Sequence record: LC788708.1
Reading direction: 5' to 3' (one strand)
DNA: 64,000 nt
Origin: Escherichia coli phage AZ21
Of this stretch, positions 31,610-61,461 are shown in pieces. The first letter of the stretch is position 1; every line of letters starts with the position of its first letter. A program made the position numbers and the translations under genes. The notes under the pieces were generated by a model. The model made no database searches. It saw only the letters and a list, made by a program, of their open reading frames with translations, and was not told the origin of the DNA.

Positions 31610-31638
31610 TTGCTTTTTGCTGTAAACCTTGTTATAAT
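31610..31638 (+). promoter_or_regulatory. Sigma70-type early promoter (phoH operon) in the divergent intergenic region
   Basis: ttgctt-17 nt-tataat in AT-rich 320-bp region. Confidence 0.6.
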
Positions 31639-31714
31639 ATATTCGTAAGTTGATAAACAAGATCTCTTTGTTGATCCTCTGTTAGAAGCGAAGTACACTA
31701 TAGGAGTGTTATTT

Positions 31715-32467
31715 ATGGGAAAAGCACGTCAAAAAAGAGAGAACCGCAATGGTTCAAGAAAGCGTGGCAACAAATATGAGAATACCGTAATTCAGGCTGA
31801 TTTTTCTAATGATTACGCTAACCCAGTTGCTAAATCCCTAGTAGGTAAAAACCGCGAGCAAAAATCATATATCAATATGATCAAGAACAACACAGTGACT
31901 GTGGGTATCGGTGAGCCGGGTACTGGTAAAACCTTTATTCCGTCCGTTCTTGCAGCTCAGGAACTCGTAGACATTCACTCAGATATTGAGCAAGTGATCC
32001 TCGTACGTCCTAATGAACCTCTAGGCAAGTCTCTTGGTATGCTTCCTGGTGATCTAGCAGAAAAGCTAGAGCCTTGGTTGGAGCCAATAGCTGATGGTAT
32101 GAAATGGGCCATCGGCGATCATGCATATAAAGGATATGTCGAACGTCAGAAAATTAAATTTTTGGCTATCGAACATGCTCGTGGCAGAACTTTCAACAAC
32201 TCCTATGTAATTGTCGATGAAGCTCAGAATATTTCCGTTGAGGCAATGATTTGTCTCCTAACTCGTGTAGGACAAGACTGCCGTTTAATTATCTGCGGAG
32301 ATATAGCTCAGAAAGACATTAAAGGTGACTCAGGTCTAGCACTCCTTATGGAAGTCTATGAGAAATACGAAAATGCCCCATTCTCAATGATCGAATTGAT
32401 TGATAACGTTCGTTCTGTCGAGTCTAAAGCATTCTATGATATTTTTAAAGACATGGGGAAGGTGTAA
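31715..32467 (+). CDS. phoH: PhoH-like ATPase
   Basis: Walker A GEPGTGKT, Walker B VIVDEAQN; start at ATG with RBS aggag (not the upstream GTG at 31706). Confidence 0.85.
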   Translation: MGKARQKRENRNGSRKRGNKYENTVIQADFSNDYANPVAKSLVGKNREQKSYINMIKNNTVTVGIGEPGTGKTFIPSVLAAQELVDIHSDIEQVILVRPNEPLGKSLGMLPGDLAEKLEPWLEPIADGMKWAIGDHAYKGYVERQKIKFLAIEHARGRTFNNSYVIVDEAQNISVEAMICLLTRVGQDCRLIICGDIAQKDIKGDSGLALLMEVYEKYENAPFSMIELIDNVRSVESKAFYDIFKDMGKV

Positions 32468-32468
32468 T

Positions 32469-32690
32469 ATGGGAAACGTCGTTCATCTGAGCCGTAAAAC
32501 TAAAATACATCGTACTTCACTGAGTGCTGCTAATATTATTACACGTAAGGAAGGAGAAGAAAGTCCTAAGACAACCCTAGCGTGGAAAATTGTAACCTCA
32601 AATCCAAATAAACCATTCAATTATAACGAGCTGAGCACCTCCATAGATATTCTATTAAAAGAAGTAGCTAGAGCTAAAGTAATTGAATAA
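32469..32690 (+). CDS. Hypothetical protein
   Basis: 73 aa from MGNVVHL; ATG overlaps the phoH stop. Confidence 0.4.
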   Translation: MGNVVHLSRKTKIHRTSLSAANIITRKEGEESPKTTLAWKIVTSNPNKPFNYNELSTSIDILLKEVARAKVIE

Positions 32691-32832
32691 GCTAAAAAGC
32701 TAGACTGGTAATATACAGGGCCTGGGTATGAAAATACTCGGGCCTTTTCTATCAGAAAATTTTATTTGCCTAATGACCAATAATAATGTAGAATATTCCT
32801 TAAATCCTGATAACTATAAAAAGGAAAGCCAA

Positions 32833-35209: not shown

Positions 35210-35239
35210 TTGCTAATCGCTACCAGATTTGCTATAATA
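35210..35239 (+). promoter_or_regulatory. Sigma70-type promoter for nrdB
   Basis: ttgcta-18 nt-tataat. Confidence 0.6.
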
Positions 35240-35269
35240 TTCCTGAAATAGTGAGAAAGAGGAAAATCA

Positions 35270-37802: not shown

Positions 37803-38156
37803 ATGTTGACAATACTATTATTTGTTATATTCTTCCTGAAACATTTTATGGCTGATTATCCCCTCCAAACTCCATACATGTTAAGGAAGACCCACAAAAT
37901 AGGGTGGAAACTTCCATTACTAACCCATTCTCTAGTACATGCTGGACTAACCTTTATAATTCTTACTATGTTCACATCACTAGGAATGGCTATAACTTTA
38001 GCTATAATGGAATTAATTCTACACTTTATCATAGATTACTGGAAAGCACAATGCTGTAAATACGATATAAGTGATTCCAGGTTTTGGATAGCTTTAGGAT
38101 TTGATCAGTTACTCCATTACTTAACCTATGCTCTCATAATTTTAATTATAATTTAG
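37803..38156 (+). CDS. Hypothetical membrane protein
   Basis: 117 aa, several hydrophobic helices. Confidence 0.45.
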   Translation: MLTILLFVIFFLKHFMADYPLQTPYMLRKTHKIGWKLPLLTHSLVHAGLTFIILTMFTSLGMAITLAIMELILHFIIDYWKAQCCKYDISDSRFWIALGFDQLLHYLTYALIILIII

Positions 38157-38161
38157 CTCAA

Positions 38162-38187
38162 ATAGCCCTTCGGGGCTATTATATTTA
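38162..38187 (+). terminator. Rho-independent terminator
   Basis: atagccc-ttcg-gggctat followed by tatattt. Confidence 0.65.
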
Positions 38188-38195
38188 AATTTCAT

Positions 38196-38224
38196 TTGCT
38201 TATTTAGTGAAATTTAAATATAAT
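38196..38224 (+). promoter_or_regulatory. Sigma70-type early promoter
   Basis: ttgctt-17 nt-tataat-atattttataaattggagg. Confidence 0.65.
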
Positions 38225-38250
38225 ATATTTTATAAATTGGAGGTACACAT

Positions 38251-39021: not shown

Positions 39022-39050
39022 TTGCTTAAAGCCCTCTAATTTAGTATAAT
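39022..39050 (+). promoter_or_regulatory. Sigma70-type early promoter
   Basis: ttgctt-17 nt-tataat. Confidence 0.65.
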
Positions 39051-39077
39051 ATTCGTATTGAAAGTGAGGAGGGATTT

Positions 39078-39372: not shown

Positions 39373-39401
39373 TTGCTAAACGCTTCAAATTCTCGTATAA
39401 T
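39373..39401 (+). promoter_or_regulatory. Sigma70-type early promoter
   Basis: ttgcta-17 nt-tataat-atacttcataaattgat. Confidence 0.65.
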
Positions 39402-39439
39402 ATACTTCATAAATTGATAAACAAAAAGGAAAACAAATA

Positions 39440-39980: not shown

Positions 39981-40019
39981 ACAATCGACTAATTCTCTAA
40001 CTAATCAAGGATATTTTTT

Positions 40020-40235
40020 ATGTTCTCTAAGAAACCACGTTCTGTTACTGAAATCGTTGCTTCCTTTACCACTATCACTGATGAGCTTCAAGCTCGTATT
40101 GAGGCTGATCAAAAAATCGCTGCTGATATTCAGAAACAGCAGGAAGAACTCGCTTTAAAGTTGGCTGAAACCAACAAGAGTGAAAAATCTGCCCAAACTA
40201 TTATGGAAAATATCCTTAAACTGCTGGGCAAGTGA
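40020..40235 (+). CDS. Hypothetical protein
   Basis: 71-aa ORF. Confidence 0.45.
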   Translation: MFSKKPRSVTEIVASFTTITDELQARIEADQKIAADIQKQQEELALKLAETNKSEKSAQTIMENILKLLGK

Positions 40236-40243
40236 TTTAAATC

Positions 40244-40270
40244 AGGGGGGGGCGAAAGCCCCTCTTATTT
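40244..40270 (+). terminator. Rho-independent terminator-like hairpin
   Basis: gggggggcgaaagcccctc followed by ttattt. Confidence 0.55.
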
Positions 40271-40279
40271 GGAGAAACT

Positions 40280-40516
40280 ATGCGTAATTTTGTAGCAAAG
40301 AATGATTTTAACCGTGCTAGCACTCATAAGTCCGCTAGAGATTATACACGACTTTCTAGTCATGAGGTAATGGATACCTGTTATGAAGAGCTGGAAGGTA
40401 GCTGGAATGAGTGTCCCGACTTCTCTATGGAAGAGAACTGGGATGTCAGTGAGGATATGCTTCCTGGTTTTAAAGACCCCAAGAAGTGGGAGTCTATTAA
40501 AGAGACAGCTCTTTAA
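40280..40516 (+). CDS. Hypothetical acidic protein
   Basis: 78-aa ORF. Confidence 0.45.
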   Translation: MRNFVAKNDFNRASTHKSARDYTRLSSHEVMDTCYEELEGSWNECPDFSMEENWDVSEDMLPGFKDPKKWESIKETAL

Positions 40517-40544
40517 TAGTTTTCTACACAATAAAGGATAAGTT

Positions 40545-41246
40545 ATGAAAGTAAAACCATTTGGTATGCTAGATATTGAATCTCTAGGAACTCCAGGAGA
40601 TTGTGGTACTACCCATATCGCAATGCCTTCATTCGCTTTTGTGGCTATGCATGGAATTGATAAAGACCCTGATCTAGTATTTGTTACTTTAGATGTACAA
40701 GATCAACTTAATTCTGGTGCCAAAGTTACAGCATCTACTCTAGCATTCTGGATGGATCAGGCTAAACATAGCCCGTCTGCTATCCACATTATGGAAGCTA
40801 TGAATGAGCGTAATCCAAAACTGGTTGCCTTCCAAAATGGTAAACATCATTGCACTAATAAACTTGGCTCTAACCATGCTGCCTTCTCTATGGCTCAAAA
40901 TATTATGGAGTTGGCTCTAGGCGAAAATGCTTTGTATTATGGCAATGGCCCAGAGTTTGATATGACTATCTACTCTGCAAACACTTTCCATGCTGGAACC
41001 AATGAAGAAATAGTTCCGTGGAAATTCTGGAACTTGGGTAATGTTAGATCTCTTCGTAATCTCTGGATGCAAACTGGCTATAGTTATAAAGCTCTAGAAA
41101 CCGAAGGTATTAGCTGGGCAATAGCTAAAATGGAGAAGATGGACACCATTCGTTATGGGATCTATCCGGTTAAGCACGACCCAGCATTCGATGCCCTAGT
41201 TGAGAGCTATTGTGTTGCAGCTATGATCGAAAAAATGAAAATTTGA
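40545..41246 (+). CDS. Putative DEDDh 3'-5' exonuclease (Rv2179c-like)
   Basis: N-terminal MLDIESLGT (Exo I), YGNGPEFD (Exo II), KHDPAFDAL (Exo III HxAxxD). Confidence 0.5.
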   Translation: MKVKPFGMLDIESLGTPGDCGTTHIAMPSFAFVAMHGIDKDPDLVFVTLDVQDQLNSGAKVTASTLAFWMDQAKHSPSAIHIMEAMNERNPKLVAFQNGKHHCTNKLGSNHAAFSMAQNIMELALGENALYYGNGPEFDMTIYSANTFHAGTNEEIVPWKFWNLGNVRSLRNLWMQTGYSYKALETEGISWAIAKMEKMDTIRYGIYPVKHDPAFDALVESYCVAAMIEKMKI

Positions 41247-41247
41247 T

Positions 41248-41276
41248 TTGCTTCCGGCTCCAAAATTCTGTATAAT
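41248..41276 (+). promoter_or_regulatory. Sigma70-type early promoter
   Basis: ttgctt-17 nt-tataat-atattcataaatttgag. Confidence 0.65.
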
Positions 41277-41316
41277 ATATTCATAAATTTGAGAAAACAA
41301 TAAAAGGAAAACAAAT

Positions 41317-41499
41317 ATGCCAGTATCTAAAAATGTTCGTAAAAATGGTAAGAAAGCTACTCGTAATCTGGGTATCCGTCGTATGGCTGAACGTCAATCA
41401 GGTATCCAGAAAATCTTTGATCTGCTAAATCGTGCTAATCCTAAAATTGATAACAGTAACGATACTGTTCTGCGCACCCTGCTGGCAATTGGTCTGTAA
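41317..41499 (+). CDS. Hypothetical small basic protein
   Basis: 60-aa ORF. Confidence 0.45.
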   Translation: MPVSKNVRKNGKKATRNLGIRRMAERQSGIQKIFDLLNRANPKIDNSNDTVLRTLLAIGL

Positions 41500-41552
41500 T
41501 AGACCAAATTTAAACAAATTCAAATCTCAAACTTCATATAAGGAAGCAAATA

Positions 41553-42191
41553 ATGACTACTCGTATCTCTAAAACTCGCGCTCTGGCAACTATCAAATCT
41601 CTGGAAGCTAAAATCCGTAAAGCTACTGAACAACAGCTTCTGATCGCTGTTGGTGAAGGTAAGGATAAAAACCAGGTTGTAGTTGGCGCTGCAATCGAAG
41701 TAGATGCCCTGTCTACTCGTATTAAAACTGATTTCCAATCTCTGCTGGATATGATGTCTCAGCGTGATCGTATTAAATCTGCTCTGATTAAGAGCAATGC
41801 AGAAACAATCGTTGAGATTGGTTCTCGTAAGATGACTGTTGCGGAAGCAATTGAAGCTAAGCGTTCTATGGAGCTTAAAGCTCAGCTGCTGGCTAACATG
41901 CGTAAGCAGTTCCATGCCGCTACGATTAAGTTTAATACGCAGAAAGCACAGTTTGATGCTAAATATGAGCGTTTGCAGGATAGCATGGCTACCCGCGATA
42001 AGAAAACTTCCGAAGATGAAGTTAAAATGCAGCTCAATCTGCTGGAACTCAAGAATACTCCATTCTTGATTGATCCGCTGGAACTGGAGAAGCTGATTAA
42101 GCAGCATGACGAGGAATACCAGGACTTTGCAACAAATGTTGACTTTGTTCTATCCGAGTCTAACGCCTCTACCTTCATTGAAGTAGAGTAA
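41553..42191 (+). CDS. Hypothetical coiled-coil protein
   Basis: 212 aa; RBS aaggaagcaaataATG. Confidence 0.5.
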   Translation: MTTRISKTRALATIKSLEAKIRKATEQQLLIAVGEGKDKNQVVVGAAIEVDALSTRIKTDFQSLLDMMSQRDRIKSALIKSNAETIVEIGSRKMTVAEAIEAKRSMELKAQLLANMRKQFHAATIKFNTQKAQFDAKYERLQDSMATRDKKTSEDEVKMQLNLLELKNTPFLIDPLELEKLIKQHDEEYQDFATNVDFVLSESNASTFIEVE

Positions 42192-42574
42192 TAATTTAAA
42201 AGCTAGTAAATCGGTAGACGAAAGCCCAAGCATCTTACCTCGCAGCAGCGGTTGAAATACGAGGTTAAATAAGACCGCTGACCATACTATAAAGTATAAT
42301 CTATTGGAGATTATGTTTATTACACCAGCCTCTTAAGCTGACACGTAAGAACAAAGCGTCGTTGATATTACCGACACAACTTCAAAGATCAACATTTAAG
42401 TATGAAAGCTGAAAAGTTTAAAGAACTCAAACTTCTAAACTTCTAAAGCTAAAAGATGCAAAGTATTCGTTGATGATTCAAACCCTAGATCAAAGGTACA
42501 TGGCTCATAAGATATGGCCTGTGGCGCCTCTAGGCTGTTTATCGGTTTACTAGTTTCACAATTTAAAAATGTAT

Positions 42575-42603
42575 TTGCTAATTTACTAAGTTATCTGTAT
42601 AAT
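42575..42603 (+). promoter_or_regulatory. Sigma70-type early promoter
   Basis: ttgcta-17 nt-tataat-atatttttaaattgatgaaacgagg. Confidence 0.65.
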
Positions 42604-42633
42604 ATATTTTTAAATTGATGAAACGAGGCTATT

Positions 42634-42951
42634 ATGACTTTTCATATTTTGATTGATGATGTGCGTAATCTTCACGGAATGGACATTATCATTCGAACCC
42701 CAGAAGCCGCTGTAGAGTTTCTGAATAAAACTGATACCACAGGCCACTTCGTTTATATGGATAATGACTTGGCTGTAGATGGTATGGAAGGTTATCAAAT
42801 TCTTCGTTTACTCTTAGAATTTGGGCAGAGACCAAAGAAAGTGGTACTAGTAACCTCAAACCCAGTAGCTAAGCAAAATATGCGTAATGATTTGCTTGAC
42901 TTAGGGTATAAAGAAAATCCCAATCGTGTTGAATATGATTGGCAGGAGTAA
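42634..42951 (+). CDS. Stand-alone receiver (REC/CheY-like) domain protein
   Basis: 105 aa; HILIDD (beta1 acidic pair), FVYMDNDLAVDGMEG (beta3 Asp), VVLVTSNP (beta4 Thr/Ser), YKENP (beta5 Lys). Confidence 0.4.
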   Translation: MTFHILIDDVRNLHGMDIIIRTPEAAVEFLNKTDTTGHFVYMDNDLAVDGMEGYQILRLLLEFGQRPKKVVLVTSNPVAKQNMRNDLLDLGYKENPNRVEYDWQE

Positions 42952-42956
42952 AAAGA

Positions 42957-43406
42957 ATGAAGGCAGCTTTGCTTTTAGTAGCTGCCCTTACCTTCAGCTT
43001 TAGTAGTCAGGCATCGCACGATGCAAAAGAAATAGATTGCATTGCTAAAAATATCTATTTCGAGAGTCGCGGTGAGGGCATAAAGGGAATGACGGCGGTT
43101 GCACATGTTACTAAAAACCGTGTAAACTCCGGTAAATTCCCAGATTCCTACTGTAAAGTAGTATATCAGTCTAACCAGTTCTCTTGGGTATCTAAGAGAC
43201 CAAAAGTTGATAAAACTGATGAGGCTTGGCAAACCGCTAAGAATTTAGCTAGAGTGATATACTACGTTGATTTACCACAAGATCCTACGTATGGAGCACT
43301 ATACTTCCATAGTGGTAAAGATAAACCTTACTGGACAAAGAAGTTTAAGAAAACAACTAAGATTAAGGGACATACGTTTTATAAACCTGTTGTCACTAAA
43401 ACTTAA
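42957..43406 (+). CDS. Secreted SleB-like cell-wall hydrolase
   Basis: Signal peptide MKAALLLVAALTFSFSSQA; IAKNIYFESRGEG...AVAHVTKNRV...YCKVVYQSNQFSW matches SleB/Hydrolase_2 family. Confidence 0.65.
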   Translation: MKAALLLVAALTFSFSSQASHDAKEIDCIAKNIYFESRGEGIKGMTAVAHVTKNRVNSGKFPDSYCKVVYQSNQFSWVSKRPKVDKTDEAWQTAKNLARVIYYVDLPQDPTYGALYFHSGKDKPYWTKKFKKTTKIKGHTFYKPVVTKT

Positions 43407-43414
43407 AAATTTAC

Positions 43415-43443
43415 TTGCTTAGCTACTTAAATTTCTGTATAAT
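43415..43443 (+). promoter_or_regulatory. Sigma70-type early promoter
   Basis: ttgctt-agctacttaaatttctg-tataat-actttcataaattaatgagaggaag. Confidence 0.7.
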
Positions 43444-43474
43444 ACTTTCATAAATTAATGAGAGGAAGCGAAAT

Positions 43475-43645
43475 ATGAAATCAGTTGTAATTATTGGTGT
43501 TAACACTCGCGGTATTCGTACTACGAAAACTGTTAAAACTTCTAACGTTGCTGAAATCACTACGAACCCTAAAAAGTTTGATTTCGCCAAAGTCTCAGCA
43601 GTTATGACAGAACAATCTTTTAACCAAGCATTGGGGATGAAATAA
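43475..43645 (+). CDS. Hypothetical small protein (56 aa)
   Basis: ATG 10 nt after RBS gagaggaag; stop overlaps next start (TAATG); below the ORF-track size cutoff. Confidence 0.45.
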   Translation: MKSVVIIGVNTRGIRTTKTVKTSNVAEITTNPKKFDFAKVSAVMTEQSFNQALGMK

Positions 43646-44079
43646 TGGGTGAAAATATTCTAATGACCCTTCGTGGACTGCTTAGTCTAGCACGTACCCA
43701 CGGTGATAAGGAGAGGGCACTTAATCTTCAGACCATGATTGGTGATCTGCAACGTATTGATAAAGACATTGTTACTCGAACCGAGTTCGTAGCCTATCTG
43801 AAAGCTCAGATTAAGGCTCTAGAAAATGCAAAACAACGCGCTATTAAAGTTGGTACGGAAGTTCCTACTGATGTAGACTATGAGCAACTGCTTTATTCCA
43901 TGCTGCAAGAGTATCAGCCAAGTCAACTGACTGAAGTTCAGATTCGTGAGTATTTTGCAGAACTGGTTAAATTAAACCCAGGTATTACCAAAGCTCTATT
44001 AATGAAAACTATTAAGGCAGAATTTCCTGGACGTTATGACGGTAAAACAACTGCTTTGATTGCTAGTGAATTTTTCTAA
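43645..44079 (+). CDS. Hypothetical protein
   Basis: 144-aa ORF translationally coupled to the preceding small ORF. Confidence 0.5.
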   Translation: MGENILMTLRGLLSLARTHGDKERALNLQTMIGDLQRIDKDIVTRTEFVAYLKAQIKALENAKQRAIKVGTEVPTDVDYEQLLYSMLQEYQPSQLTEVQIREYFAELVKLNPGITKALLMKTIKAEFPGRYDGKTTALIASEFF

Positions 44080-44087
44080 AAATTCAC

Positions 44088-44116
44088 TTGCTAAATGCTT
44101 ATAAATTCTATATAAT
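44088..44116 (+). promoter_or_regulatory. Sigma70-type promoter heading the tRNA island
   Basis: ttgcta-17 nt-tataat-atattcataaatt followed by inverted repeat aattagatg...catctaatt. Confidence 0.65.
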
Positions 44117-44193
44117 ATATTCATAAATTAGATGATAATTAGGCATCTAATTTATAAATAGTGGGGTGTGGAAATCACTTATGTAGTAACACT

Positions 44194-44265
44194 GCCGTCC
44201 TAGTATAATTGGTATTATCAAGCCGTAACTGGTGGAAGATGTAGGTTCGAATCCTACGGTCGGTA
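44194..44265 (+). tRNA. tRNA-like gene with canonical T-arm but irregular acceptor/anticodon arms (possible degenerate tRNA)
   Basis: T-arm gtagg-ttcgaat-cctac and D-loop aattgg are present; acceptor gccgtcc/ggtcggt has one U-U mismatch; best anticodon stem has only 4 bp (loop gccgtaa); no encoded CCA. Confidence 0.4.
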
Positions 44266-44767
44266 AGAACTGGATAACTGATGCTTTTAACGTAAAAGCT
44301 TCCGAGGTTAGTTGCGCACTGCCTAAACCACGCGGTAGTTGGTTCCAGACTAACCAACCAGTCTGCTGAATAGTTTTATTACGATTTAACTATGTCCAGG
44401 CTAAAGAAGAACTTTAGAAGGTATTCTAGGATAGTGAAGTTCTTTCTCCACATCGGAGTAGTTTTTCAAGCTATCCACAAAGTGGGAAATGCTGACATGA
44501 GAGATGTCACTAATGGTGCACAATAGCACAGGTAATTCGCGATAATTCCTGTTGAGTAGCAGCAAAAGGCGGGAAGTCATGACCCCAAGCCTAACCGAGT
44601 CCTCAATATACCGCAGGGCATAACCACTAAGTCACCCTGACTTAAACTGGAAAATAATAGACGTTACTGTATTTTGTCTTGAAATACTTAATGAGTGAGA
44701 CTTATGACTCTCCCGGTATCGTCTGTATTTTTAAGAGTTTTTACGAGAGTTCTTAAAAATACTTAAA

Positions 44768-44842
44768 CGGGGTGTAGTCTAAGGGAGAGGCAGGAGTCTT
44801 CTAAATTCCTTTATGCAGGTTCGAATCCTGTCACCTCGGCCA
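44768..44842 (+). tRNA. tRNA-Arg (anticodon UCU)
   Basis: Acceptor cggggtg/cacctcg, D-stem gtct/aggc, anticodon stem ggagt/attcc with loop cTTCTAa, T-arm gcagg-ttcgaat-cctgt, discriminator g, encoded CCA. Confidence 0.8.
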
Positions 44843-44876
44843 ATTTTATTAACTGTAACTAAAACAAAGGAAACAT

Positions 44877-45824
44877 ATGTTTAATACTAAAAATATGAAA
44901 GAATTGACTTCTGAGCAGAAAGTAATTCGTACTATTAAACGTTGGGGTATTGGTGCTGTAGTTGGTTTAGCAGGTTTAATCCTAGCTTTTAATTCGTATA
45001 CCATTGTTTCTGATGGTACGGTTAAAACCCAAACATTCCTGGGTAAAGTAGACCCTAATCCAGTATTACCTGGTTTCCATCTTGTAAACCCGTTTGCATC
45101 TTTCGATACTTTTAGTACGAAAGATATTTCTATGAAACTGGATAAACTTCAGGTTCCTAGCCAGGATAAGTTTAAGTCTACAGTTGACATTACCGTTATG
45201 TTGCAGTTTGATGGTGCTAAAGCTCCTATTAACCGTGTTAACGCAGGTACTCAGGATCAAGCTCTGAACAAGTACGTTGAAGAGAAGATGCTGTCTACGA
45301 TTCGTGAGTTTGGTAAGTCTGTACCAAAAGCACAAGATCTGTTCGACGCTAAGATTCAGGCTCAACTGCAAACCGCTATTCAGCAAGAAGTAGAAGAGTA
45401 TGCGCGTCCTTATGGCTACACCGTTAAGCAAGTATTCCTTCAGGATATTACTCTGCCACCGGTAATCATGGAACAGGTACAAAACACCAAAGTTCGTGAA
45501 GAACAAGTTAACGCTGCAAAAGCTGAACTAGCTCGTGTTGAACAAGAAGCACAGCAGAAAGTTAAGCAAGCTGAGGCTGATCGTTCTGCTCGTGAAAATA
45601 TGGCAGTAGCTAACGAACGTGACGCAGATGCTAAACTGTATGCGGCTAAGAAAGAAGCTGAAGCTAACACCGCTCTGCAGCGTACCATCACTCCAGAGAT
45701 GATTCGCTGGAAACAGCTGGAAGTTGATATGAAACGCGCTGAAAAATATCAGGGTGGCGTTCCTCAGACTGTTGTAGGTACTGGTTATGATGGCCAGATG
45801 ATTATGGATATGCGTAATAAGTAA
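44877..45824 (+). CDS. SPFH/band-7 (prohibitin/HflC-like) membrane protein
   Basis: 315 aa; N-terminal TM helix IGAVVGLAGLILAF, SPFH core, C-terminal coiled-coil. Confidence 0.65.
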   Translation: MFNTKNMKELTSEQKVIRTIKRWGIGAVVGLAGLILAFNSYTIVSDGTVKTQTFLGKVDPNPVLPGFHLVNPFASFDTFSTKDISMKLDKLQVPSQDKFKSTVDITVMLQFDGAKAPINRVNAGTQDQALNKYVEEKMLSTIREFGKSVPKAQDLFDAKIQAQLQTAIQQEVEEYARPYGYTVKQVFLQDITLPPVIMEQVQNTKVREEQVNAAKAELARVEQEAQQKVKQAEADRSARENMAVANERDADAKLYAAKKEAEANTALQRTITPEMIRWKQLEVDMKRAEKYQGGVPQTVVGTGYDGQMIMDMRNK

Positions 45825-46027: not shown

Positions 46028-46056
46028 TTGCTTGAATGCTAAATTCTCTGTATAAT
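46028..46056 (+). promoter_or_regulatory. Sigma70-type early promoter
   Basis: ttgctt-17 nt-tataat-atatttataaatttgagagagg. Confidence 0.7.
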
Positions 46057-46086
46057 ATATTTATAAATTTGAGAGAGGAATCAAAT

Positions 46087-46391: not shown

Positions 46392-46420
46392 TTGCTTAAT
46401 GCCGAAATTTTCTATATAAT
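46392..46420 (+). promoter_or_regulatory. Sigma70-type early promoter
   Basis: ttgctt-17 nt-tataat. Confidence 0.65.
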
Positions 46421-46451
46421 ATATTCTATAAATTATAGATAGGAGTCATAT

Positions 46452-46970
46452 ATGACTGTTGACGAGTTAAAACAACATCTTTTATCTAGGGGCTTTGATA
46501 GTGATAAGTATCACTGTTGGCTCTCTCCACATGGATGGTTAACAGTTCCACTGTATGATTTCTCTGGCATGTTACGTGGATATCAAACATATAACCCTAG
46601 TGCAGCTAAAGGTCATGGAAAATGTCCTTCTGAAGCTAAATATTTTACGCATTCTTCTACTCAATGTCTATGGGGTTTAGAAACTCTTACAGGTAATGAA
46701 GACCTAGTATTAGTTGCAGAATCTGTATTTAAAGCTGTGGCACTACACAACGCGGGATATCCCGCACTAGCAATGCTAGGATCTTCCCCTAGCAAAGCAC
46801 TGCTAAAGCAGCTAAAATTACAACCTTTTAAAGTAGTAGCCGTAGGCGATAATGATTCTGCTGGTGAGAAGTTTGCTAAAAAACTAAATGGGTTTACTTC
46901 CCTCATGGATTTAGATGAAATGAATACAGAAAACTTGAAAAATTTTCTTGCCATGAAGCTAAATTTCTAA
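46452..46970 (+). CDS. Hypothetical protein with TOPRIM-like segment
   Basis: 172 aa; LVLVAESVFKAVAL...VVAVGDNDSAGEKFAKKL resembles TOPRIM acidic motifs; the downstream tRNA promoter -35 lies within its 3' end. Confidence 0.4.
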   Translation: MTVDELKQHLLSRGFDSDKYHCWLSPHGWLTVPLYDFSGMLRGYQTYNPSAAKGHGKCPSEAKYFTHSSTQCLWGLETLTGNEDLVLVAESVFKAVALHNAGYPALAMLGSSPSKALLKQLKLQPFKVVAVGDNDSAGEKFAKKLNGFTSLMDLDEMNTENLKNFLAMKLNF

Positions 46971-46976
46971 TATAAT
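46948..46976 (+). promoter_or_regulatory. Sigma70-type promoter for tRNA-Ser/tRNA-Met pair
   Basis: ttgcca-17 nt-tataat-atattcataaattt immediately followed by the tRNA 5' end. Confidence 0.65.
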
Positions 46977-46990
46977 ATATTCATAAATTT

Positions 46991-47084
46991 GGAAGATTAA
47001 CCCTAAAGGTAAGGGAGCTGTTTGCTAAACAGCCAGTAGCTGTGGAGACACGGTGTGCCAGTTCGAATCTGGCATCTTCCTCCA
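46991..47084 (+). tRNA. tRNA-Ser (anticodon GCU), class II with long variable arm
   Basis: Acceptor ggaagat/atcttcc (7 bp), anticodon stem gctgt/acagc with loop tTGCTaa, long variable arm, T-arm gccag-ttcgaat-ctggc, encoded CCA. Confidence 0.8.
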
Positions 47085-47167: not shown

Positions 47168-47186
47168 AATTAAATAAGGACAACTA

Positions 47187-47375: not shown

Positions 47376-47383
47376 GAGACTAT

Positions 47384-47909: not shown

Positions 47910-47917
47910 GATTACAT

Positions 47918-47994: not shown

Positions 47995-48009
47995 AATTAA
48001 GGAAATAAA

Positions 48010-48382: not shown

Positions 48383-48412
48383 TTGCTTTTTGCTTAAGAT
48401 TTCTGCTATAAT
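48383..48412 (+). promoter_or_regulatory. Sigma70-type early promoter
   Basis: ttgctt-18 nt-tataat-agttatataagttgatgagagg. Confidence 0.6.
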
Positions 48413-48441
48413 AGTTATATAAGTTGATGAGAGGAATCAGA

Positions 48442-48753: not shown

Positions 48754-48782
48754 TTGCTCAGTGCCTTAAAACTTGATATAAT
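48754..48782 (+). promoter_or_regulatory. Sigma70-type promoter upstream of tRNA-Tyr
   Basis: ttgctc-17 nt-tataat. Confidence 0.55.
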
Positions 48783-48847
48783 ATTTATCTAATTTGGAAA
48801 CATATTTAAAAGTGTTTAAATGAGAATTTTTGAATACTTCTAAATAT

Positions 48848-49401: not shown

Positions 49402-49770
49402 ATGAAAGCATATCAAAGTCTTAAGTCTGGCGTAATTAACCTTGTTCATGATAACCAGATCATTCAGCTATATTCTAAAGATGGTGAACTTAAACAAAAG
49501 GTTCTAGTTGAAGATCTAGAGGGTATCACACCTCATTTTGACCCTGAGGCCTTCCGCATTGTAGATGTAGAAGTGGTTCCTCAAGTCGAGGGTGGTCAGC
49601 ACCTAAATGTCAATGTGTTAAGCCGTGATCAGCTTTTGGATGCACAGAAACATCCTGAAAAATATCCTCAGTTGACCATCCGTGTCTCTGGCTATGCTGT
49701 TCGATTTAACGCATTGACGCGTGAACAACAGAACGACGTTATTAGTCGTACATTTACTCAGGCGATATAA
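49402..49770 (+). CDS. grcA: Autonomous glycyl-radical cofactor (GrcA/YfiD-like)
   Basis: 122 aa; [11 protein letters not shown]...[37 protein letters not shown] is the conserved GrcA/PFL C-terminal glycyl-radical domain (RVSGY). Confidence 0.8.
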
Positions 49771-49851
49771 TGGGGTTTGGATACGATTTCTCCCAACTAC
49801 GCAAGGTAGTCGAGCAAACTCCATTTATCTCCCAAGTTTTAGGAGAAATGT

Positions 49852-50151
49852 GTGGATCGAGCATTAAGACGCCATCACCGGCAACGTGTGAAAAACAATC
49901 GCAAGAAGTATTGGACAGTCTTCCCACATGAAGAAAGCCCTAAGAGGTTAGGCATTATCACTACCACTCCTTGCATCTGTTCTTGTTGGATGTGTGGGAA
50001 TCCTCGCAAATACTATAAGAATAGTAAAGCAGGCATGAAAATTTCGGAGATTAAAAAGATGGATGCAATGATTATGGGCATCACCTTTACAGGTGGTATC
50101 TCTGATGAATTCGACGGTTTTGTAACTCAGGATATTGTCGAAATTATCTAA
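49852..50151 (+). CDS. Hypothetical Cys-rich basic protein (GTG start)
   Basis: 99 aa; PCICSCWMCGNP; RBS aggag 6 nt before GTG. Confidence 0.4.
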   Translation: MDRALRRHHRQRVKNNRKKYWTVFPHEESPKRLGIITTTPCICSCWMCGNPRKYYKNSKAGMKISEIKKMDAMIMGITFTGGISDEFDGFVTQDIVEII

Positions 50152-50831: not shown

Positions 50832-50860
50832 TTGCTAAACCTCTCTTTTCTTGCTATAAT
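50832..50860 (+). promoter_or_regulatory. Sigma70-type early promoter
   Basis: ttgcta-17 nt-tataat-atgtttataaattgatgagagagg. Confidence 0.7.
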
Positions 50861-50890
50861 ATGTTTATAAATTGATGAGAGAGGTTTGAA

Positions 50891-52956: not shown

Positions 52957-52985
52957 TTGCTTAGATGCCCAAACTTTTGTATAAT
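52957..52985 (+). promoter_or_regulatory. Sigma70-type early promoter
   Basis: ttgctt-17 nt-tataat-atgtttatagattgagg. Confidence 0.65.
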
Positions 52986-53016
52986 ATGTTTATAGATTGA
53001 GGCAAGAGGATTAAAT

Positions 53017-53715
53017 ATGAGGATTATTTCTAAGTTCGCCGATGTGTATGATTTGCAGAACAGTTTGTTCGACCCAGATCGTGTTTGGGAACGTAAAACT
53101 GAAGAGTTGCTGGTTAAAGTAACCGATGATGCAGAAAAGAACATTGTGCATACTCGCCAGGTATTTCGTGATGGTTCGCTATCTTTCCGTGGTGATTTCG
53201 AATATTTTGTAAACCCACTATTTGTTGCAGGTGAAGTTTACTGGTTACACGAGCTGTACTGCTGGCATCCAGCATTTAGCTTCAAAACGTTTAATCTCGA
53301 CACTATGTTCGATAAAATGGAAGAGATGGGATTACATGCTCGCTCTTACTTAATGGATAAGAGTCGTGGAGATGTTCGTGAAACAGTACGTGATTTGCTC
53401 TCTGAAGCAAAACCTAAAGCAGAACGTATCTTATCCGAACTGCGTGTACCGATTGCATATGTGAAAGGTATTAAGAAGAACGATAACGATGATGTTCGTA
53501 ACTTCGTGATTCAGACTAACATTCGTTTCCATCAGTCAGGTATTCCGTGGCAGGAAATTGAAAGTAACTTATACCGTTTACACCAAGTTCTCGAACAGTA
53601 TATCTTCGGTGTACTAGGAACTGGTGAGCCTGATATGATTAAAGTATCAGATAAAGACAGGTTAGCAGCGCATGGATTTGATACAAAAACTTCTTTCAGG
53701 AATATGGCACGGTAA
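53017..53715 (+). CDS. Hypothetical protein
   Basis: 232-aa ORF. Confidence 0.5.
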   Translation: MRIISKFADVYDLQNSLFDPDRVWERKTEELLVKVTDDAEKNIVHTRQVFRDGSLSFRGDFEYFVNPLFVAGEVYWLHELYCWHPAFSFKTFNLDTMFDKMEEMGLHARSYLMDKSRGDVRETVRDLLSEAKPKAERILSELRVPIAYVKGIKKNDNDDVRNFVIQTNIRFHQSGIPWQEIESNLYRLHQVLEQYIFGVLGTGEPDMIKVSDKDRLAAHGFDTKTSFRNMAR

Positions 53716-55169: not shown

Positions 55170-55769
55170 ATGACTAATAAAAAAGAAGAAAAGACTAACC
55201 TGTTTCACTCCATTCGCCAATCTAACGAGTATACCTTTTTCTTTGATGAAGAATTAGGCCCGCCTGATGAATACCGTGATTTATCAATGGTACTTATGCA
55301 GGCAAATGAGGACGACGAAATTAATCTGATGATTAATGGCCCAGGTGGTTATGTTGATACTGCTGCACAGTTAGCTAACTTAATTGCTAATTGCCGTGGA
55401 ACAGTTATAGGGCATCTGATTGGTCCTAGTGCTTCTGCTTACTGCACAATTTTCCTATCCTGTCATGGATGGGTAGTACATCCACATGCTACGTTAATGG
55501 GACACACGTTCTCTGGCGGATTCTGTGAGAAAGGTCAGGAAATCAAGAAAGCCTATGAATCTTACAACAAGTTTGTAGAAGATATGATGCTAGATGTCTA
55601 CTATCCCTTTTTCTCAATAGATGAAATCGACGAGATGGTAAAAGACAACAAAAATATCTATCTAGATAGCAAGGAAATCCATAAGCGTATTGAAATCTTG
55701 GCGAAATATCGATCTGAGCAATATAATAAAGCCCAGTTACCTCAATCCGAGGAGTACAACGAAGAGTAA
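55170..55769 (+). CDS. ClpP-like serine peptidase (S14 family)
   Basis: LMINGPGGYV (ClpP INSPGG-type) and IGPSASAYCTIF (GxxAS active-site Ser region), downstream His. Confidence 0.55.
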   Translation: MTNKKEEKTNLFHSIRQSNEYTFFFDEELGPPDEYRDLSMVLMQANEDDEINLMINGPGGYVDTAAQLANLIANCRGTVIGHLIGPSASAYCTIFLSCHGWVVHPHATLMGHTFSGGFCEKGQEIKKAYESYNKFVEDMMLDVYYPFFSIDEIDEMVKDNKNIYLDSKEIHKRIEILAKYRSEQYNKAQLPQSEEYNEE

Positions 55770-55778
55770 GTAATTTTA

Positions 55779-55810
55779 AGCCAGGGTTTAACGACCCTGG
55801 CTTTTCTTTT
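55779..55810 (+). terminator. Rho-independent terminator
   Basis: agccagggtt-taacg-accctggct followed by tttctttt. Confidence 0.8.
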
Positions 55811-57499: not shown

Positions 57500-57528
57500 T
57501 TGACTTTTAGCCCTACTTATTATATAAT
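57500..57528 (+). promoter_or_regulatory. Sigma70-type early promoter
   Basis: ttgact-17 nt-tataat-atatacataaattagttaagagagg. Confidence 0.7.
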
Positions 57529-57563
57529 ATATACATAAATTAGTTAAGAGAGGTATATATATT

Positions 57564-58785: not shown

Positions 58786-58817
58786 AGCCTGATTTTAGCT
58801 GATCAGGCTTTTATTTT
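58786..58817 (+). terminator. Rho-independent terminator
   Basis: agcctgat-tttagc-tgatcaggct followed by tttatttt. Confidence 0.75.
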
Positions 58818-58819
58818 AC

Positions 58820-58848
58820 TTGCTTTTTGCTAAAAATTTTGGTATAAT
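58820..58848 (+). promoter_or_regulatory. Sigma70-type early promoter
   Basis: ttgctt-17 nt-tataat-acttatataaattgattggagg. Confidence 0.7.
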
Positions 58849-58875
58849 ACTTATATAAATTGATTGGAGGATTAA

Positions 58876-60508: not shown

Positions 60509-60623
60509 GTATATAGCTGAGGGTATTATTAAACGAATCATACAAGCGATAGCAATACTTATAATCATTTGTATTGCTATTGGTGCGGGATTAGGCATTT
60601 TAATTAAAAGTTTTATTTGCTAA
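60501..60623 (+). CDS. Possible small hydrophobic peptide (40 aa)
   Basis: MSEYIAEGIIKRIIQAIAILIIICIAIGAGLGILIKSFIC; start overlaps the upstream stop; below the ORF-track cutoff. Confidence 0.3.
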   Translation: MSEYIAEGIIKRIIQAIAILIIICIAIGAGLGILIKSFIC

Positions 60624-60645
60624 AATGCTTAAGTTTCTGTATAAT
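60617..60645 (+). promoter_or_regulatory. Sigma70-type early promoter
   Basis: ttgcta-17 nt-tataat-tactttataaattgatgagaagg. Confidence 0.7.
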
Positions 60646-60675
60646 TACTTTATAAATTGATGAGAAGGAATCAAA

Positions 60676-61104
60676 ATGAACAAAGTTGATAAAGCTCTAG
60701 TTTTCGCAGCAGCAGATAAGTTTGAACAAGTTAAGGCAACTTTCCGAACCTTGTTCCAGTCTTACGTTCAAGATAAGTCTAATCCTATCTCTGAACGTTT
60801 GATGGTCTGGGAATGCTACGCAACTGATGCCCTATTAATGGCATATTACAGGGGTGAGGCAGACGAAGAGATCGAAGAACTTTTTACTGAAGATACTCCA
60901 CGTTATCAGGCAGTTTATTTCCAAGACCTAGCTGAGCGCATCATTCCTGATGATCTTTGGAATAAATACTACGGTGATCCTGAAGATGAAGGAATGACTC
61001 CAGAAGCCTGTATTGAGCTGATCTGCAAAGATCATCCTGAAATTGCAGAGAAATTTGAAAAAGTTTTTGCTTCTGAGTTCTCCGGCGTTGTTAACGATTG
61101 GTAA
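60676..61104 (+). CDS. Hypothetical acidic protein
   Basis: 142-aa ORF. Confidence 0.5.
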   Translation: MNKVDKALVFAAADKFEQVKATFRTLFQSYVQDKSNPISERLMVWECYATDALLMAYYRGEADEEIEELFTEDTPRYQAVYFQDLAERIIPDDLWNKYYGDPEDEGMTPEACIELICKDHPEIAEKFEKVFASEFSGVVNDW

Positions 61105-61121
61105 GTAATTAAAAAATTCAG

Positions 61122-61150
61122 TTGCTTTAAGCCTTAAAATTCTGTATAAT
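61122..61150 (+). promoter_or_regulatory. Sigma70-type early promoter
   Basis: ttgctt-17 nt-tataat-aagttcataaattaatgagagagg. Confidence 0.7.
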
Positions 61151-61182
61151 AAGTTCATAAATTAATGAGAGAGGAAATTCTA

Positions 61183-61461
61183 ATGAAAAACATGACTAAA
61201 GACTTCGACGCCTCTAACCTTACCAAGACTGAAATGGCCAATGTATTAGCAATTCTCCTCGACATGCAAGGATTTGAGGGGCAACTGATGAAAATGTCTA
61301 TTCCAGCGATGAAGAAGATGTACGATTCCCTTAACAAGAACGCTATGGCCTTTAACTTAGCAAAACAAGAGGCGCGCTTTGCTAAGGAGCATCAAGCAGT
61401 GGCAGAACGCCGAGCAGCTAGCTTTGAGCGTGAAGTTAAGCAACTGAAAGGTAAGAAATAA
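61183..61461 (+). CDS. Hypothetical protein
   Basis: 92 aa from MKNMTKDF; the upstream in-frame ATG at 61165 lies inside the conserved promoter box. Confidence 0.5.
   Translation: MKNMTKDFDASNLTKTEMANVLAILLDMQGFEGQLMKMSIPAMKKMYDSLNKNAMAFNLAKQEARFAKEHQAVAERRAASFEREVKQLKGKK

What the first reader, a model, noticed from the sequence alone, without database searches (positions are those of the whole stretch)
31610..61190. Family of more than 25 near-identical early promoters sharing a conserved box downstream of the -10 element
Almost every early transcription unit on both strands starts with TTGCT(T/A)-17 nt-TATAAT, followed by a conserved element roughly a(t/c)(a/t)TTcATAAATT(g/a)ATGAGAGG that merges into the ribosome-binding site (for example 43415-43470, 46028-46080, 50832-50885, 61122-61180; reverse-complement copies at 9905-9945, 10005-10044, 18505-18551, 19680-19726, 21915-21945, 28785-28815). 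The box often contains an ATG that opens a 3-6 codon mini-ORF or extends the annotated ORF in frame. The conservation is far stronger than sigma70 recognition needs, suggesting an extra function such as promoter-clearance tuning, a phage regulator binding site, or a standard translation-initiation leader.
Basis: partly seen in the sequence, partly recalled or inferred. Interest (0 to 1): 0.45.

Follow-up and report, generated by a model that had tools for sequence, protein, structure and literature searches.

The report
Classic phage T5 early promoter family
The repeated element is real, but it is the long-known family of very strong early promoters of phage T5 (the source of the laboratory "T5/N25 promoter"); the conserved box after the -10 element is the stretch just before the start site, the first transcribed bases and the ribosome-binding site.

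Summary
The window is a T5-like coliphage, 100% identical to E. coli phage AZ23 (Tequintavirus) over the 8 kb compared (window 40000-48000), apart from one 1.8 kb cassette.

- **Observation: confirmed.** TTGCTW-N16-18-TATAAT occurs 22 times against 0.27 expected. In sites chosen only by that pattern, the next 24 nt carry 16.1 bits (null 0.13±0.43). I count about 30 members in the window, 20 of them in the stated range.
- **Identity.** They are orthologues of promoters already annotated in the T5 GenBank record: P-N25, P-N26, P-K28a, P-H207, P-D/E33, P15a-c, P16-17 and P31A/B.
- **Box anatomy.** It is the discriminator (-6..-1, ATATTY), an A/T-rich start (+1..+7, ATAAATT) and a purine-rich +8..+18 tract that holds the Shine-Dalgarno site.
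- **Transcription, not translation.** The -6..+7 part is as conserved at 9 promoters with no start codon within +35 (three of them drive tRNA or stable RNA). Only GAGG is lost there.
- **Class and family range.** T5 pre-early and late promoters lack the box. It recurs in Klebsiella and Vibrio relatives.
- **Published work.** Changing N25 +3..+20 lowers output about 10-fold, and the native sequence speeds promoter escape. The early-specific ATATT discriminator has been proposed as the target of the phage RNA-polymerase-binding protein gpT5.026.
- **Mini-ORF idea: not supported.** An ATG sits in the box in 8 of 30 promoters, in frame in 2 of 8.

Verdict: already known, low interest.

The parts
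31610..31662 (+). Early promoter (-35 to +18); orthologue of T5 promoter at 53638-53712 (phoH operon). Long leader, no SD in the box.
35210..35262 (+). Early promoter before nrdB; same position as T5 p50061. In T5 the HNH gene hegH is inserted right after the -10.
38196..38248 (+). Early promoter, directly after a terminator-like hairpin.
39022..39074 (+). Early promoter; orthologue of T5 p46337. Box divergent (ATTGAAAGTGAGGAGG).
39373..39425 (+). Early promoter; orthologue of T5 P-H207.
41248..41300 (+). Early promoter; orthologue of T5 p44393.
42575..42627 (+). Early promoter; orthologue of T5 p43067. ATG at +9 opens a 12-codon ORF.
43415..43467 (+). Early promoter; orthologue of T5 P-D/E33. 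ATG at +9 opens a 6-codon ORF.
44088..44140 (+). Early promoter; orthologue of T5 P16-17 (stable RNA X / tRNA-Arg unit). No SD. The box forms the 5' arm of a 12-bp 5'-terminal RNA hairpin.
46028..46080 (+). Early promoter; orthologue of T5 P15a, box identical to N25 type. It is the junction of the nadR-pnuC cassette deletion relative to AZ23.
46392..46444 (+). Early promoter with the box shifted by 1 nt (TATAAATTATAGATAGGAG).
46948..47000 (+). Early promoter (-35 TTGCCA); orthologue of T5 P15b. tRNA-Ser starts at +9, so only the -6..+8 half of the box is present.
48383..48436 (+). Early promoter (18-bp spacer); orthologue of T5 P15c. The ATG at +9 is in frame with the ORF.
48754..48806 (+). 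Early promoter (-35 TTGCTC); orthologue of T5 P14a, upstream of tRNA-Tyr. No SD.
50832..50884 (+). Early promoter; orthologue of T5 p26722.
52957..53009 (+). Early promoter; orthologue of T5 p24443.
57500..57552 (+). Early promoter with -35 TTGACT; orthologue of T5 p19368. Found by the box matrix alone.
58820..58872 (+). Early promoter; orthologue of T5 p18550, overlapping an upstream terminator T-run.
60617..60669 (+). Early promoter; same position as T5 P-F30.
61122..61174 (+). Early promoter; orthologue of T5 p16245. The ATG at +9 is in frame.
28787..28839 (-). Early promoter; orthologue of T5 p55708.
25459..25511 (-). Early promoter (-35 TTGCAG); orthologue of T5 p58999. Long leader, no SD.
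21916..21968 (-). Orthologue of T5 P-N25 (before gene D2). TATAAT AGATTC ATAAATTTGAGAGAGGAG matches T5 N25.
   Evidence: numbering from PMC7472727
20890..20942 (-). Orthologue of T5 P-N26 (ATTCTC ATAGTTTGAAAGAAC). Long leader.
19674..19726 (-). Early promoter before ligA; orthologue of T5 p65284.
18499..18551 (-). Orthologue of T5 P-K28a (before ligB/D5).
14486..14539 (-). DNA polymerase promoter (18-bp spacer); orthologue of T5 p70987. Box GTAAGTTAGAGAAGAAAC.
10006..10058 (-). Orthologue of T5 P31A (-35 TTGGCA). Found by the box matrix.
9905..9958 (-). Orthologue of T5 P31B (18-bp spacer).
31385..31437 (-). nrdD promoter (TTGACG-17-TATAAT). Box weak or absent, so a marginal member.
62620..63078 (+). 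Gene for the gpT5.026 orthologue (98% identical). It is the RNA-polymerase-binding protein proposed in the literature to act through the early-specific discriminator. The link to the box is inferred, not shown here.
   Evidence: PMC7472727

Best explanation
These are the sigma70-dependent early (class II) promoters of a T5-like phage. Each one is a compact expression cassette of about 80 bp.

Anatomy of the cassette:
- An A/T block at -45..-37, then TTGCT(T/A), a 17-bp spacer, and TATAAT.
- The 'box', which has three parts:
  1. The discriminator, -6..-1, ATATT(T/C).
  2. The start site and an A/T-rich initial transcribed sequence, +1..+7, ATAAATT.
  3. A purine-rich tract, +8..+18, TGAGAGAGG or GATGAGAGG, which holds the Shine-Dalgarno site where a gene follows. 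The start codon then lies at about +21..+35.

Mechanism:
- The upstream half binds host RNA polymerase extremely tightly, so the rate-limiting step becomes promoter escape.
- The A/T-rich, purine-rich initial transcribed sequence lowers abortive cycling and speeds escape. This is shown in vitro and in vivo for N25, and inferred for the other members.
- The 3' end of the box supplies the ribosome-binding site.
- The box marks the early class and is absent from T5 pre-early and late promoters. That last step is a published hypothesis and an inference.
For: Identity:
- The 8 kb compared (window 40000-48000) is 100% identical to phage AZ23, genus Tequintavirus.
- 22 of 30 promoters lie in T5 alignments of 77-99.5% identity that span an annotated T5 promoter (a 23rd alignment, for 9934, is a paralogous hit); these include P-N25, P-N26, P-K28a, P-H207, P-D/E33, P15a-c and P16-17. 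P31A and P31B were matched by direct sequence comparison.
- The +1 numbering comes from the N25 oligonucleotide, -12..+2 = TATAATAGATTCAT (PMC7472727).

Conservation:
- 16.1 bits in the 24 nt after the -10, against a null of 0.13±0.43.
- Every strong box match sits directly after a TATAAT.

A promoter function rather than a translation function:
- 9 promoters have no start codon within +35. They keep 5.75 bits at -6..-1 and 6.34 bits at +1..+7. The 20 coding-proximal promoters have 3.98 and 6.37 bits.
- Both groups stay purine-rich at +8..+18 (77% and 85%, against a 53% background).
- The 9 have an SD core in only 1 of 9, against 18 of 20.
- tRNA-Ser begins at +9 of promoter 46971.

Class specificity:
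- T5 P-H22 (pre-early) and P-G25 and P-J5 (late) lack the box. The lpp promoter has it.
- PMC7472727 states that all early promoters have ATATT in the discriminator.

Depth of conservation:
- The same consensus appears, with 10.8-15.8 bits, in T5, Klebsiella VAC35, Vibrio Ceto and Vibrio D124.

Function of the box at N25:
- The antiDSR change (+3..+20) cuts full-length RNA to one tenth.
- The native sequence gives the fastest escape, with a half-time of 0.3 min on supercoiled DNA, at +11.
- Purine content correlates with productive yield (PMC12464699; PMC5961368).
Against: - The escape function has been measured only for N25 and its variants. For the other roughly 29 promoters it is extrapolated.
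- Tuning of escape alone does not explain why one specific sequence (ATATTC ATAAATT) is kept across phages of different hosts, or why other strong T5 promoters (P-H22, P-G25, P-J5) do without it.
- The effect of gpT5.026 in vitro is modest, and it has not been tested on box mutants (PMC7472727).
- No transcription start sites were mapped for this phage.
Confidence: 0.85

Rival explanations
1. The box is mainly the recognition determinant of a phage-encoded temporal switch. A phage factor reads the early-specific -6..+8 sequence to shut early promoters off or re-tune them. Candidates are polymerase carrying gpT5.026, the DNA-binding protein D5, or an unknown site-specific protein. Escape tuning would then be secondary.
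For: - The box is class-specific.
- It is conserved across the family, down to relatives with 49-57% DNA polymerase identity in Vibrio phages.
- gpT5.026 is reported as conserved across Demerecviridae. It lowers polymerase affinity for the -5/+2 non-template strand 8-10-fold, and without it early transcripts are more abundant (PMC7472727).
- The window encodes orthologues of both gpT5.026 and D5.
Against: - There is no dyad symmetry beyond what A/T-rich sequence gives: at most 3.9 of 7 complementary pairs.
- The box lies inside the polymerase footprint.
- The N25 box affects output without any phage protein present (PMC12464699).
Confidence: 0.25
2. The box is a standard mRNA leader that acts at the RNA level, as a translation enhancer plus Shine-Dalgarno site, or as a determinant of 5'-end stability.
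For: - GAGG, GGAG or AGGA lies at +8..+18, and the start codon at about +21..+35, in 18 of 20 coding-proximal members.
- The leaders are unstructured, with a mean z-score of -0.3.
- At the P16-17 promoter the box forms a 5'-terminal hairpin, with compensatory changes between the window and T5.
Against: - The -6..-1 part is not transcribed, yet it is conserved.
- The +1..+7 part is equally conserved where a tRNA starts at +9 or no gene follows.
- Strong box matches never occur at internal ribosome-binding sites away from a TATAAT.
Confidence: 0.15
3. TAAATT at +2..+7 is a -10-like element that re-binds sigma70 and causes a promoter-proximal pause near +16..+18. This would resemble lambda PR', where the -10-like element lies at about +1..+6 and the pause at +16/+17. 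The pause would give a phage factor a loading point.
For: - TAAATT keeps the two key -10 positions (A at position 2, T at position 6). It lies in the most conserved part of the box.
- The lambda PR' geometry is taken from PMC5001585.
Against: - No G-rich discriminator follows the element. Lambda PR' has GGG there and depends strongly on it.
- The N25 paper read here describes escape at +11 and mentions no such pause at native N25.
- No Q-like factor is known for T5.
- Nothing could be tested here beyond the sequence match.
Confidence: 0.05
4. Family homogeneity is maintained largely by recombination or gene conversion between promoter copies. The copies would act as junctions for gain and loss of gene cassettes, rather than each position being selected separately.
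For: - In AZ23 the 1.79 kb nadR-pnuC cassette is flanked by two promoter copies that are identical from -15 to the start codon. The window has exactly the recombinant single copy.
- 5 of 42 window-versus-T5 alignment breakpoints fall inside promoter intervals, against 1.6 expected (P = 0.02).
Against: - The enrichment is modest and not corrected for the general excess of breakpoints in intergenic DNA.
- Mean pairwise identity of the copies is only 58%.
- The consensus persists in phages too diverged for copies to be exchanged between them, which requires selection on function.
- This explains spread and homogenisation, not why the sequence works.
Confidence: 0.2

Closest known systems
Bacteriophage T5 early promoters (P-N25, P-N26, P-K28a, P-H207, P-D/E33, P15a-c, P16-17, P31A/B). 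They are annotated in GenBank AY543070. From my own knowledge, they were first described by Gentz & Bujard (1985), cited as ref. 38 in PMC7472727.
   Same: - Positions are orthologous and the architecture is the same.
- The N25 copy has the same sequence from the -10 through +18.
- The consensus is the same in both genomes: up-block AAAA, TTGCTW-17-TATAAT, At.Ttt, ATAAATT, then a purine tract.
   Different: - Only strain-level differences, about 92% identity around the promoters.
- One extra promoter-plus-gene cassette at 46.0-46.4 kb is not alignable to T5.
- Some T5 promoters fall in regions the window lacks, such as the larger T5 tRNA region.
N25 'downstream sequence region' (initial transcribed sequence), studied by Kammerer et al. 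1986 and by L. Hsu's laboratory.
   Same: The +1..+20 part of the box is that element. At the window's N25 orthologue it reads ATAAATTTGAGAGAGGAG.
   Different: Those studies treat a single promoter. They do not address the family-wide and class-specific conservation, or the untranscribed -6..-1 part.
T7 A1 and other phage early promoters with purine-rich initial transcribed sequences.
   Same: Strong sigma70 promoters where a purine-rich ITS favours escape. [quoted passage not shown]
   Different: The sequence is unrelated. These are single promoters, not a family of about 30 members with a fixed box.
T4-type 'promoter-early stem-loop' (PeSL) cassettes that mediate modular shuffling (Arbiol et al. 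2010; from my own knowledge, not read here).
   Same: Repeated early-promoter units flank small gene cassettes and can serve as recombination junctions. The nadR-pnuC case shows this.
   Different: - The sequence and the phage family are different.
- Only one clear junction and a weak enrichment were seen here.
Lambda PR'-type sigma70-dependent pause element.
   Same: A -10-like hexamer lies within +1..+7.
   Different: There is no G-rich discriminator after it, no known antiterminator, and no pause evidence.

Membership tests
T5 early (class II) sigma70 promoters | Lies in the early region of a T5-like genome, at positions orthologous to mapped or annotated T5 promoters. | tested here: met
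   22 of 30 lie in T5 alignments that span an annotated promoter (a 23rd alignment, for 9934, is a paralogous hit). P31A and P31B were matched by sequence.
T5 early (class II) sigma70 promoters | -35 TTGCT(T/A), 17-bp spacer, consensus -10 TATAAT. | tested here: met
   22 exact matches against 0.27 expected. The spacer is 17 bp in most and 18 bp in three.
T5 early (class II) sigma70 promoters | A/T-rich block upstream of the -35, around -43. | tested here: met
   AAAA(t)TT at -45..-39 carries 0.65-1.4 bits per position. It is present in all five phages compared.
T5 early (class II) sigma70 promoters | Early-specific discriminator ATATT (PMC7472727). | tested here: met
   The consensus is A-t-.-T-t-t at -6..-1, with 4.4 bits. 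It is absent from T5 P-H22, P-G25 and P-J5.
T5 early (class II) sigma70 promoters | Conserved initial transcribed sequence ATAAATT followed by a purine tract (N25 type). | tested here: met
   6.3 bits at +1..+7, 5.2 bits at +8..+18, and 82% purine.
T5 early (class II) sigma70 promoters | Used by host sigma70 polymerase with early kinetics, starting at the A of ATAAATT. | not testable with these tools
   This needs primer extension or dRNA-seq on infected cells. The N25 start site is taken from PMC7472727.
Sigma70-dependent promoter-proximal pause element (lambda PR' type) | -10-like hexamer in the early transcribed region, followed by a G-rich discriminator. | tested here: inconclusive
   TAAATT is present at +2..+7. 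The next bases are TGA or GAT, not GGG.
Sigma70-dependent promoter-proximal pause element (lambda PR' type) | Sigma-dependent pause 10-12 nt downstream of the element. | not testable with these tools
   This needs in-vitro single-round transcription or NET-seq.
Operator of a dimeric sequence-specific repressor | Dyad symmetry of the conserved site. | tested here: not met
   The best centre has 3.9 of 7 complementary pairs on average. That is the level expected for A/T-only sequence; random sites give 1.85±1.16.
Translation-initiation leader / Shine-Dalgarno region | SD core at a fixed short distance from a start codon, and present only where a gene follows. | tested here: met
   This holds for the +8..+18 part only: 18 of 20 with a nearby start codon, against 1 of 9 without. 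It does not hold for -6..+7, which is retained at the 9 promoters with no start codon within +35 (three drive tRNA or stable RNA).
Upstream mini-ORF / leader peptide | Conserved start codon, conserved frame or length, and its own ribosome-binding site. | tested here: not met
   An ATG is present in 8 of 30. ORF lengths range from 4 to 12 codons. 2 of 8 are in frame with the gene. No SD lies upstream of +9.
Recombination-junction promoter cassettes (T4 PeSL-like) | Repeated promoter units flank variable gene cassettes, and indel junctions lie inside the repeats. | tested here: inconclusive
   One exact case was found, the nadR-pnuC cassette. 5 of 42 breakpoints lie in promoters against 1.6 expected, P = 0.02, uncorrected for intergenic bias.

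The most novel reading that the evidence does not exclude
The untranscribed-plus-initial module ATATTY|ATAAATT (-6..+7) is not just an escape-optimised sequence. It would be a class label conserved across the family, from E. coli to Vibrio phages. Polymerase modified by gpT5.026, or another phage factor, would read it to time the shut-off of some 30 early promoters at once. The same repeated module would also serve as the junction for gain and loss of gene cassettes.
Probability: 0.2. Interest if true: 0.45.

Novelty: already known. Interest (0 to 1): 0.12.

Why it matters
It matters little as a discovery. The family, its downstream homology and the function of the N25 transcribed region have been studied since the 1980s (dating from my own knowledge; the 1985-86 papers were not held), and N25 is a standard promoter in transcription research (PMC12464699).

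What remains open is why one specific discriminator and start sequence marks only the early class, and why it persists in relatives that infect Klebsiella and Vibrio. Answering that would bear on the unsolved mechanism of the T5 early-to-late switch.

Tried and rejected
- **Mini-ORF or in-frame ATG.** Rejected. An ATG is present in 8 of 30 promoters, the frames are random, and no SD lies upstream.
- **Palindromic operator.** Rejected. There is no dyad symmetry above the A/T-rich expectation.
- **Structured RNA leader.** Rejected in general. Mean z-score is -0.3 for +1..+45, and the polymerase leader hairpin is not significant. Only the P16-17 transcript has a real 5' hairpin.
- **Known RNA families.** The Rfam scan found only tRNAs.
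- **Window-versus-T5 substitution footprint.** The two genomes are too close, about 92% identical, to be decisive. +1..+7 is 98.8% identical and the -10 is 100%, against about 91% in the flanks.
- **Primary papers.** Kammerer 1986 and Gentz & Bujard 1985 are not held in the library. Their results are cited through PMC12464699, PMC5961368 and PMC7472727.
- **Loci not analysed.** Pectobacterium DU_PP_V and Proteus Stubb were fetched but never reached the script machine, so I did not analyse them.
- **Not used.** I ran no protein-homology or structure searches, because the finding is a DNA element with a clear identity.
Full report
**What the window is.**
An 8 kb piece (window 40000-48000) is 100% identical to Escherichia coli phage AZ23, family Demerecviridae, genus Tequintavirus. 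About 500 T5-like phages match it at 80-96%. GC skew flips near 32 kb. This fits the divergent early region of T5: genes run leftward from about 31.4 kb and rightward from about 31.6 kb. In T5 terms, the window + strand from 31.6 to 64 kb corresponds to T5 53.8 to 13.3 kb, and the - strand from 31.4 to 4 kb corresponds to T5 53.9 to 81 kb.

**Checking the observation.**
- The pattern TTGCTW-N16-18-TATAAT occurs 22 times, against 0.27 expected from shuffles.
- To avoid circularity I took those 22 sites, which were chosen without reference to what follows, and measured information content in the next 24 nt. The sum is 16.1 bits. Random sites give 0.13±0.43 (maximum 1.75 in 2000 draws). Sites after other -10-like hexamers give 0.19±0.44.
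- Columns beyond +18 fall to background.
- A box matrix trained on T5 sites gives 15 window hits above the best of 100 null sequences. All 15 lie directly after a TATAAT.
- The matrix scans also pick out two members whose -35 deviates, with -10 hexamers at 10035(-) and 57523(+).
- In total there are about 30 members: 20 on the + strand inside the stated range and 9-10 on the - strand.
- 'Near-identical' is too strong. Mean pairwise identity over -50..+20 is 58%, against 26% in the flanks.

**Identity.**
The T5 GenBank record AY543070 annotates 75-bp 'promoter' features with the classic names. Printing them shows the same family.
- T5 P-N25 reads TTGCTT...TATAAT AGATTC ATAAATTTGAGAGAGGAG. The window copy at 21916-21968(-) has the same -10 and box, and it precedes the D2 gene.
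- 22 of 30 window promoters lie inside T5 alignments that span an annotated promoter (a 23rd alignment, for 9934, is a paralogous hit to another T5 promoter). The copies at 10035 and 9934 are P31A and P31B.
- The position numbers follow Klimuk et al. 2020, who give TATAATAGATTCAT as -12..+2 of N25 (PMC7472727). So +1 is the A of ATAAATT.

**Anatomy of the box.**
With that numbering, the box has three parts:
- the discriminator at -6..-1, consensus A-t-n-T-t-t/c;
- +1..+7, ATAAATT, which is the most conserved part after the -10;
- a purine-rich tract at +8..+18, either TGAGAGAGG or GATGAGAGG.

Where a gene follows, its start codon lies at about +21..+35, and GAGG, GGAG or AGGA is present in 18 of 20 cases.

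**Tests that separate the possible functions.**
1. *Translation leader or promoter element?* Nine promoters have no start codon within +35. Of these, 44111, 46971 and 48777 drive tRNAs or stable RNAs; the rest have long leaders or precede another promoter.
   - They keep -6..-1 (5.75 bits) and +1..+7 (6.34 bits) as well as the coding-proximal ones do (3.98 and 6.37 bits).
   - They remain purine-rich at +8..+18 (77% against 85%; background 53%).
   - They have an SD core in only 1 of 9.
   - At 46971 the tRNA-Ser begins at +9.
   - So -6..+7 acts at the level of transcription, and only the GAGG core is explained by translation.
2. *The ATG.* It is present in 8 of 30 promoters, at +9 or +10, with no ribosome-binding site upstream. 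It opens ORFs of 4-12 codons or is in frame in 2 of 8, which is what chance predicts. It is missing from the N25-type variant. This is not supported as a feature.
3. *Operator?* No centre in the box has more self-complementarity than A/T-only DNA would give.
4. *RNA structure?* The leaders are unstructured on average.
5. *Class specificity.* In T5, pre-early P-H22 and late P-G25 and P-J5 lack the box. The lpp promoter has it.
6. *Depth of conservation.* I applied the same unbiased selection (TTGC-N18-20-TATAAT) to other phages and measured the next 24 nt. DNA polymerase identities are; per-phage listings are.

| Phage | DNA polymerase identity to window | Bits in next 24 nt |
|---|---|---|
| window | - | 15.8 |
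| T5 | not measured | 14.1 |
| Klebsiella VAC35 | 77% | 14.5 |
| Vibrio Ceto | 57% | 10.8 |
| Vibrio D124 | 49% | 11.1 |

   In every case the consensus is the same: A-T-rich discriminator, ATAAAtT, then about 80% purine. In Ceto the box also sits directly in front of a tRNA.

**What the literature says.**
- *N25 kinetics.* N25 binds polymerase extremely tightly and is rate-limited at escape. Replacing +3..+20 ('antiDSR', Kammerer et al. 1986) lowers full-length RNA about 10-fold and raises abortive synthesis.
- *General ITS effects.* Purine content correlates with productive yield, and ITS changes alter in-vivo strength more than 10-fold (PMC5961368).
- *Class difference.* Klimuk et al. report that T5 early and late promoters differ mainly in the discriminator, and that all early promoters carry ATATT.
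- *gpT5.026.* It binds polymerase and weakens its hold on the -5/+2 non-template strand. Without it, early transcripts are more abundant and late ones fewer (PMC7472727).
- *In this window.* The window encodes a 98% identical gpT5.026 and the D5 protein.

**Best explanation and rivals.**
The elements are T5-type early promoters. The box is the discriminator, an escape-favouring initial transcribed sequence, and the ribosome-binding site.
- *Shown for N25:* the ITS controls escape and output.
- *Shown here:* the family is real, it is early-class specific, -6..+7 is independent of translation, and it is conserved across the family.
- *Inferred:* the escape role holds for all members, and the early-specific discriminator and start region is the handle for the later down-shift by gpT5.026-modified polymerase.

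The rivals are a dedicated regulator site, a purely RNA-level leader, a sigma70-dependent pause at the -10-like TAAATT (geometry as in lambda PR', PMC5001585), and homogenisation by recombination. They are scored in the report sections. None displaces the main reading, and the first and last may coexist with it.

**Novelty and verdict.**
This is already known. But it is a long-studied, database-annotated promoter family. Interest is low.

The residual open question is why this exact sequence labels the early class across Demerecviridae. It is already framed in the literature.

Noticed in passing
window 46028-46090; AZ23 locus L001 26041-26090 and 27883-27932: The window equals AZ23 minus a 1.79 kb nadR-pnuC cassette. 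In AZ23 the cassette is flanked by two early-promoter copies that are identical from about -15 to the start codon (CTGTATAATATATTTATAAATTTGAGAGAGGAATCAAATATGA). The window carries the single recombinant copy. So the conserved box can serve as a junction for gain or loss of a gene cassette. 5 of 42 window-versus-T5 alignment breakpoints fall within promoter intervals, against 1.6 expected (P = 0.02, not corrected for intergenic bias).
   Followed up: partly
window 44123-44155 (+); T5 P16-17 transcript start: The transcript from the promoter at 44088-44140 begins with a 12-bp hairpin starting at +1, in which the box is the 5' arm (-10.3 kcal/mol, z = -3.2). T5 has a 13-bp hairpin at the same place with compensatory changes (GAUG/CAUC against GAGAG/CUCUC). 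It is probably a 5'-end protection element for the stable RNA X / tRNA-Arg unit.
   Followed up: partly
window 46983-47084 (+): tRNA-Ser(GCU) starts at +9 of the promoter whose -10 is at 46971. The primary transcript therefore has only an 8-nt leader (AUAAAUUU) before the tRNA.
   Followed up: yes
window 44194-44265 (+): Rfam reports a tRNA-like match (35.5 bits) that ARAGORN does not call. It lies in the region corresponding to T5 'RNAX', a stable RNA of unknown function.
   Followed up: no
window 35238-35245 (+) versus T5 49561-50085: In T5 the HNH homing-endonuclease gene hegH is inserted exactly between the -10 of the nrdB promoter and nrdB. The window lacks it. Other T5 HNH genes (hegI, hegJ) are also absent at window positions 22207-22214 and 15398-15401.
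   Followed up: partly
window 38150-38200, 58795-58820 (+), 28840-28865 (-); T5 record features: Several early promoters start immediately after, or overlap, a rho-independent terminator of the preceding unit. The terminator's T-run merges into the A/T block upstream of the -35. T5 annotates overlapping terminator and promoter pairs, for example 18607-18637 with 18550-18624 and 55694-55729 with 55708-55782.
   Followed up: no
T5 record 92013-92087 (outside the window): The late promoter P-G25 lacks the early box. Its leader reads ATTAAAGAGGAGAAATTAACTATG. From memory, I recognise this as the synthetic 'RBSII' of common expression vectors.
   Followed up: no
window 62620-63078 (+) and 16953-17720 (-): The window encodes orthologues of the polymerase-binding protein gpT5.026 (98% identical) and of the D5 DNA-binding protein, which is involved in early shut-off and late transcription.
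   Followed up: partly
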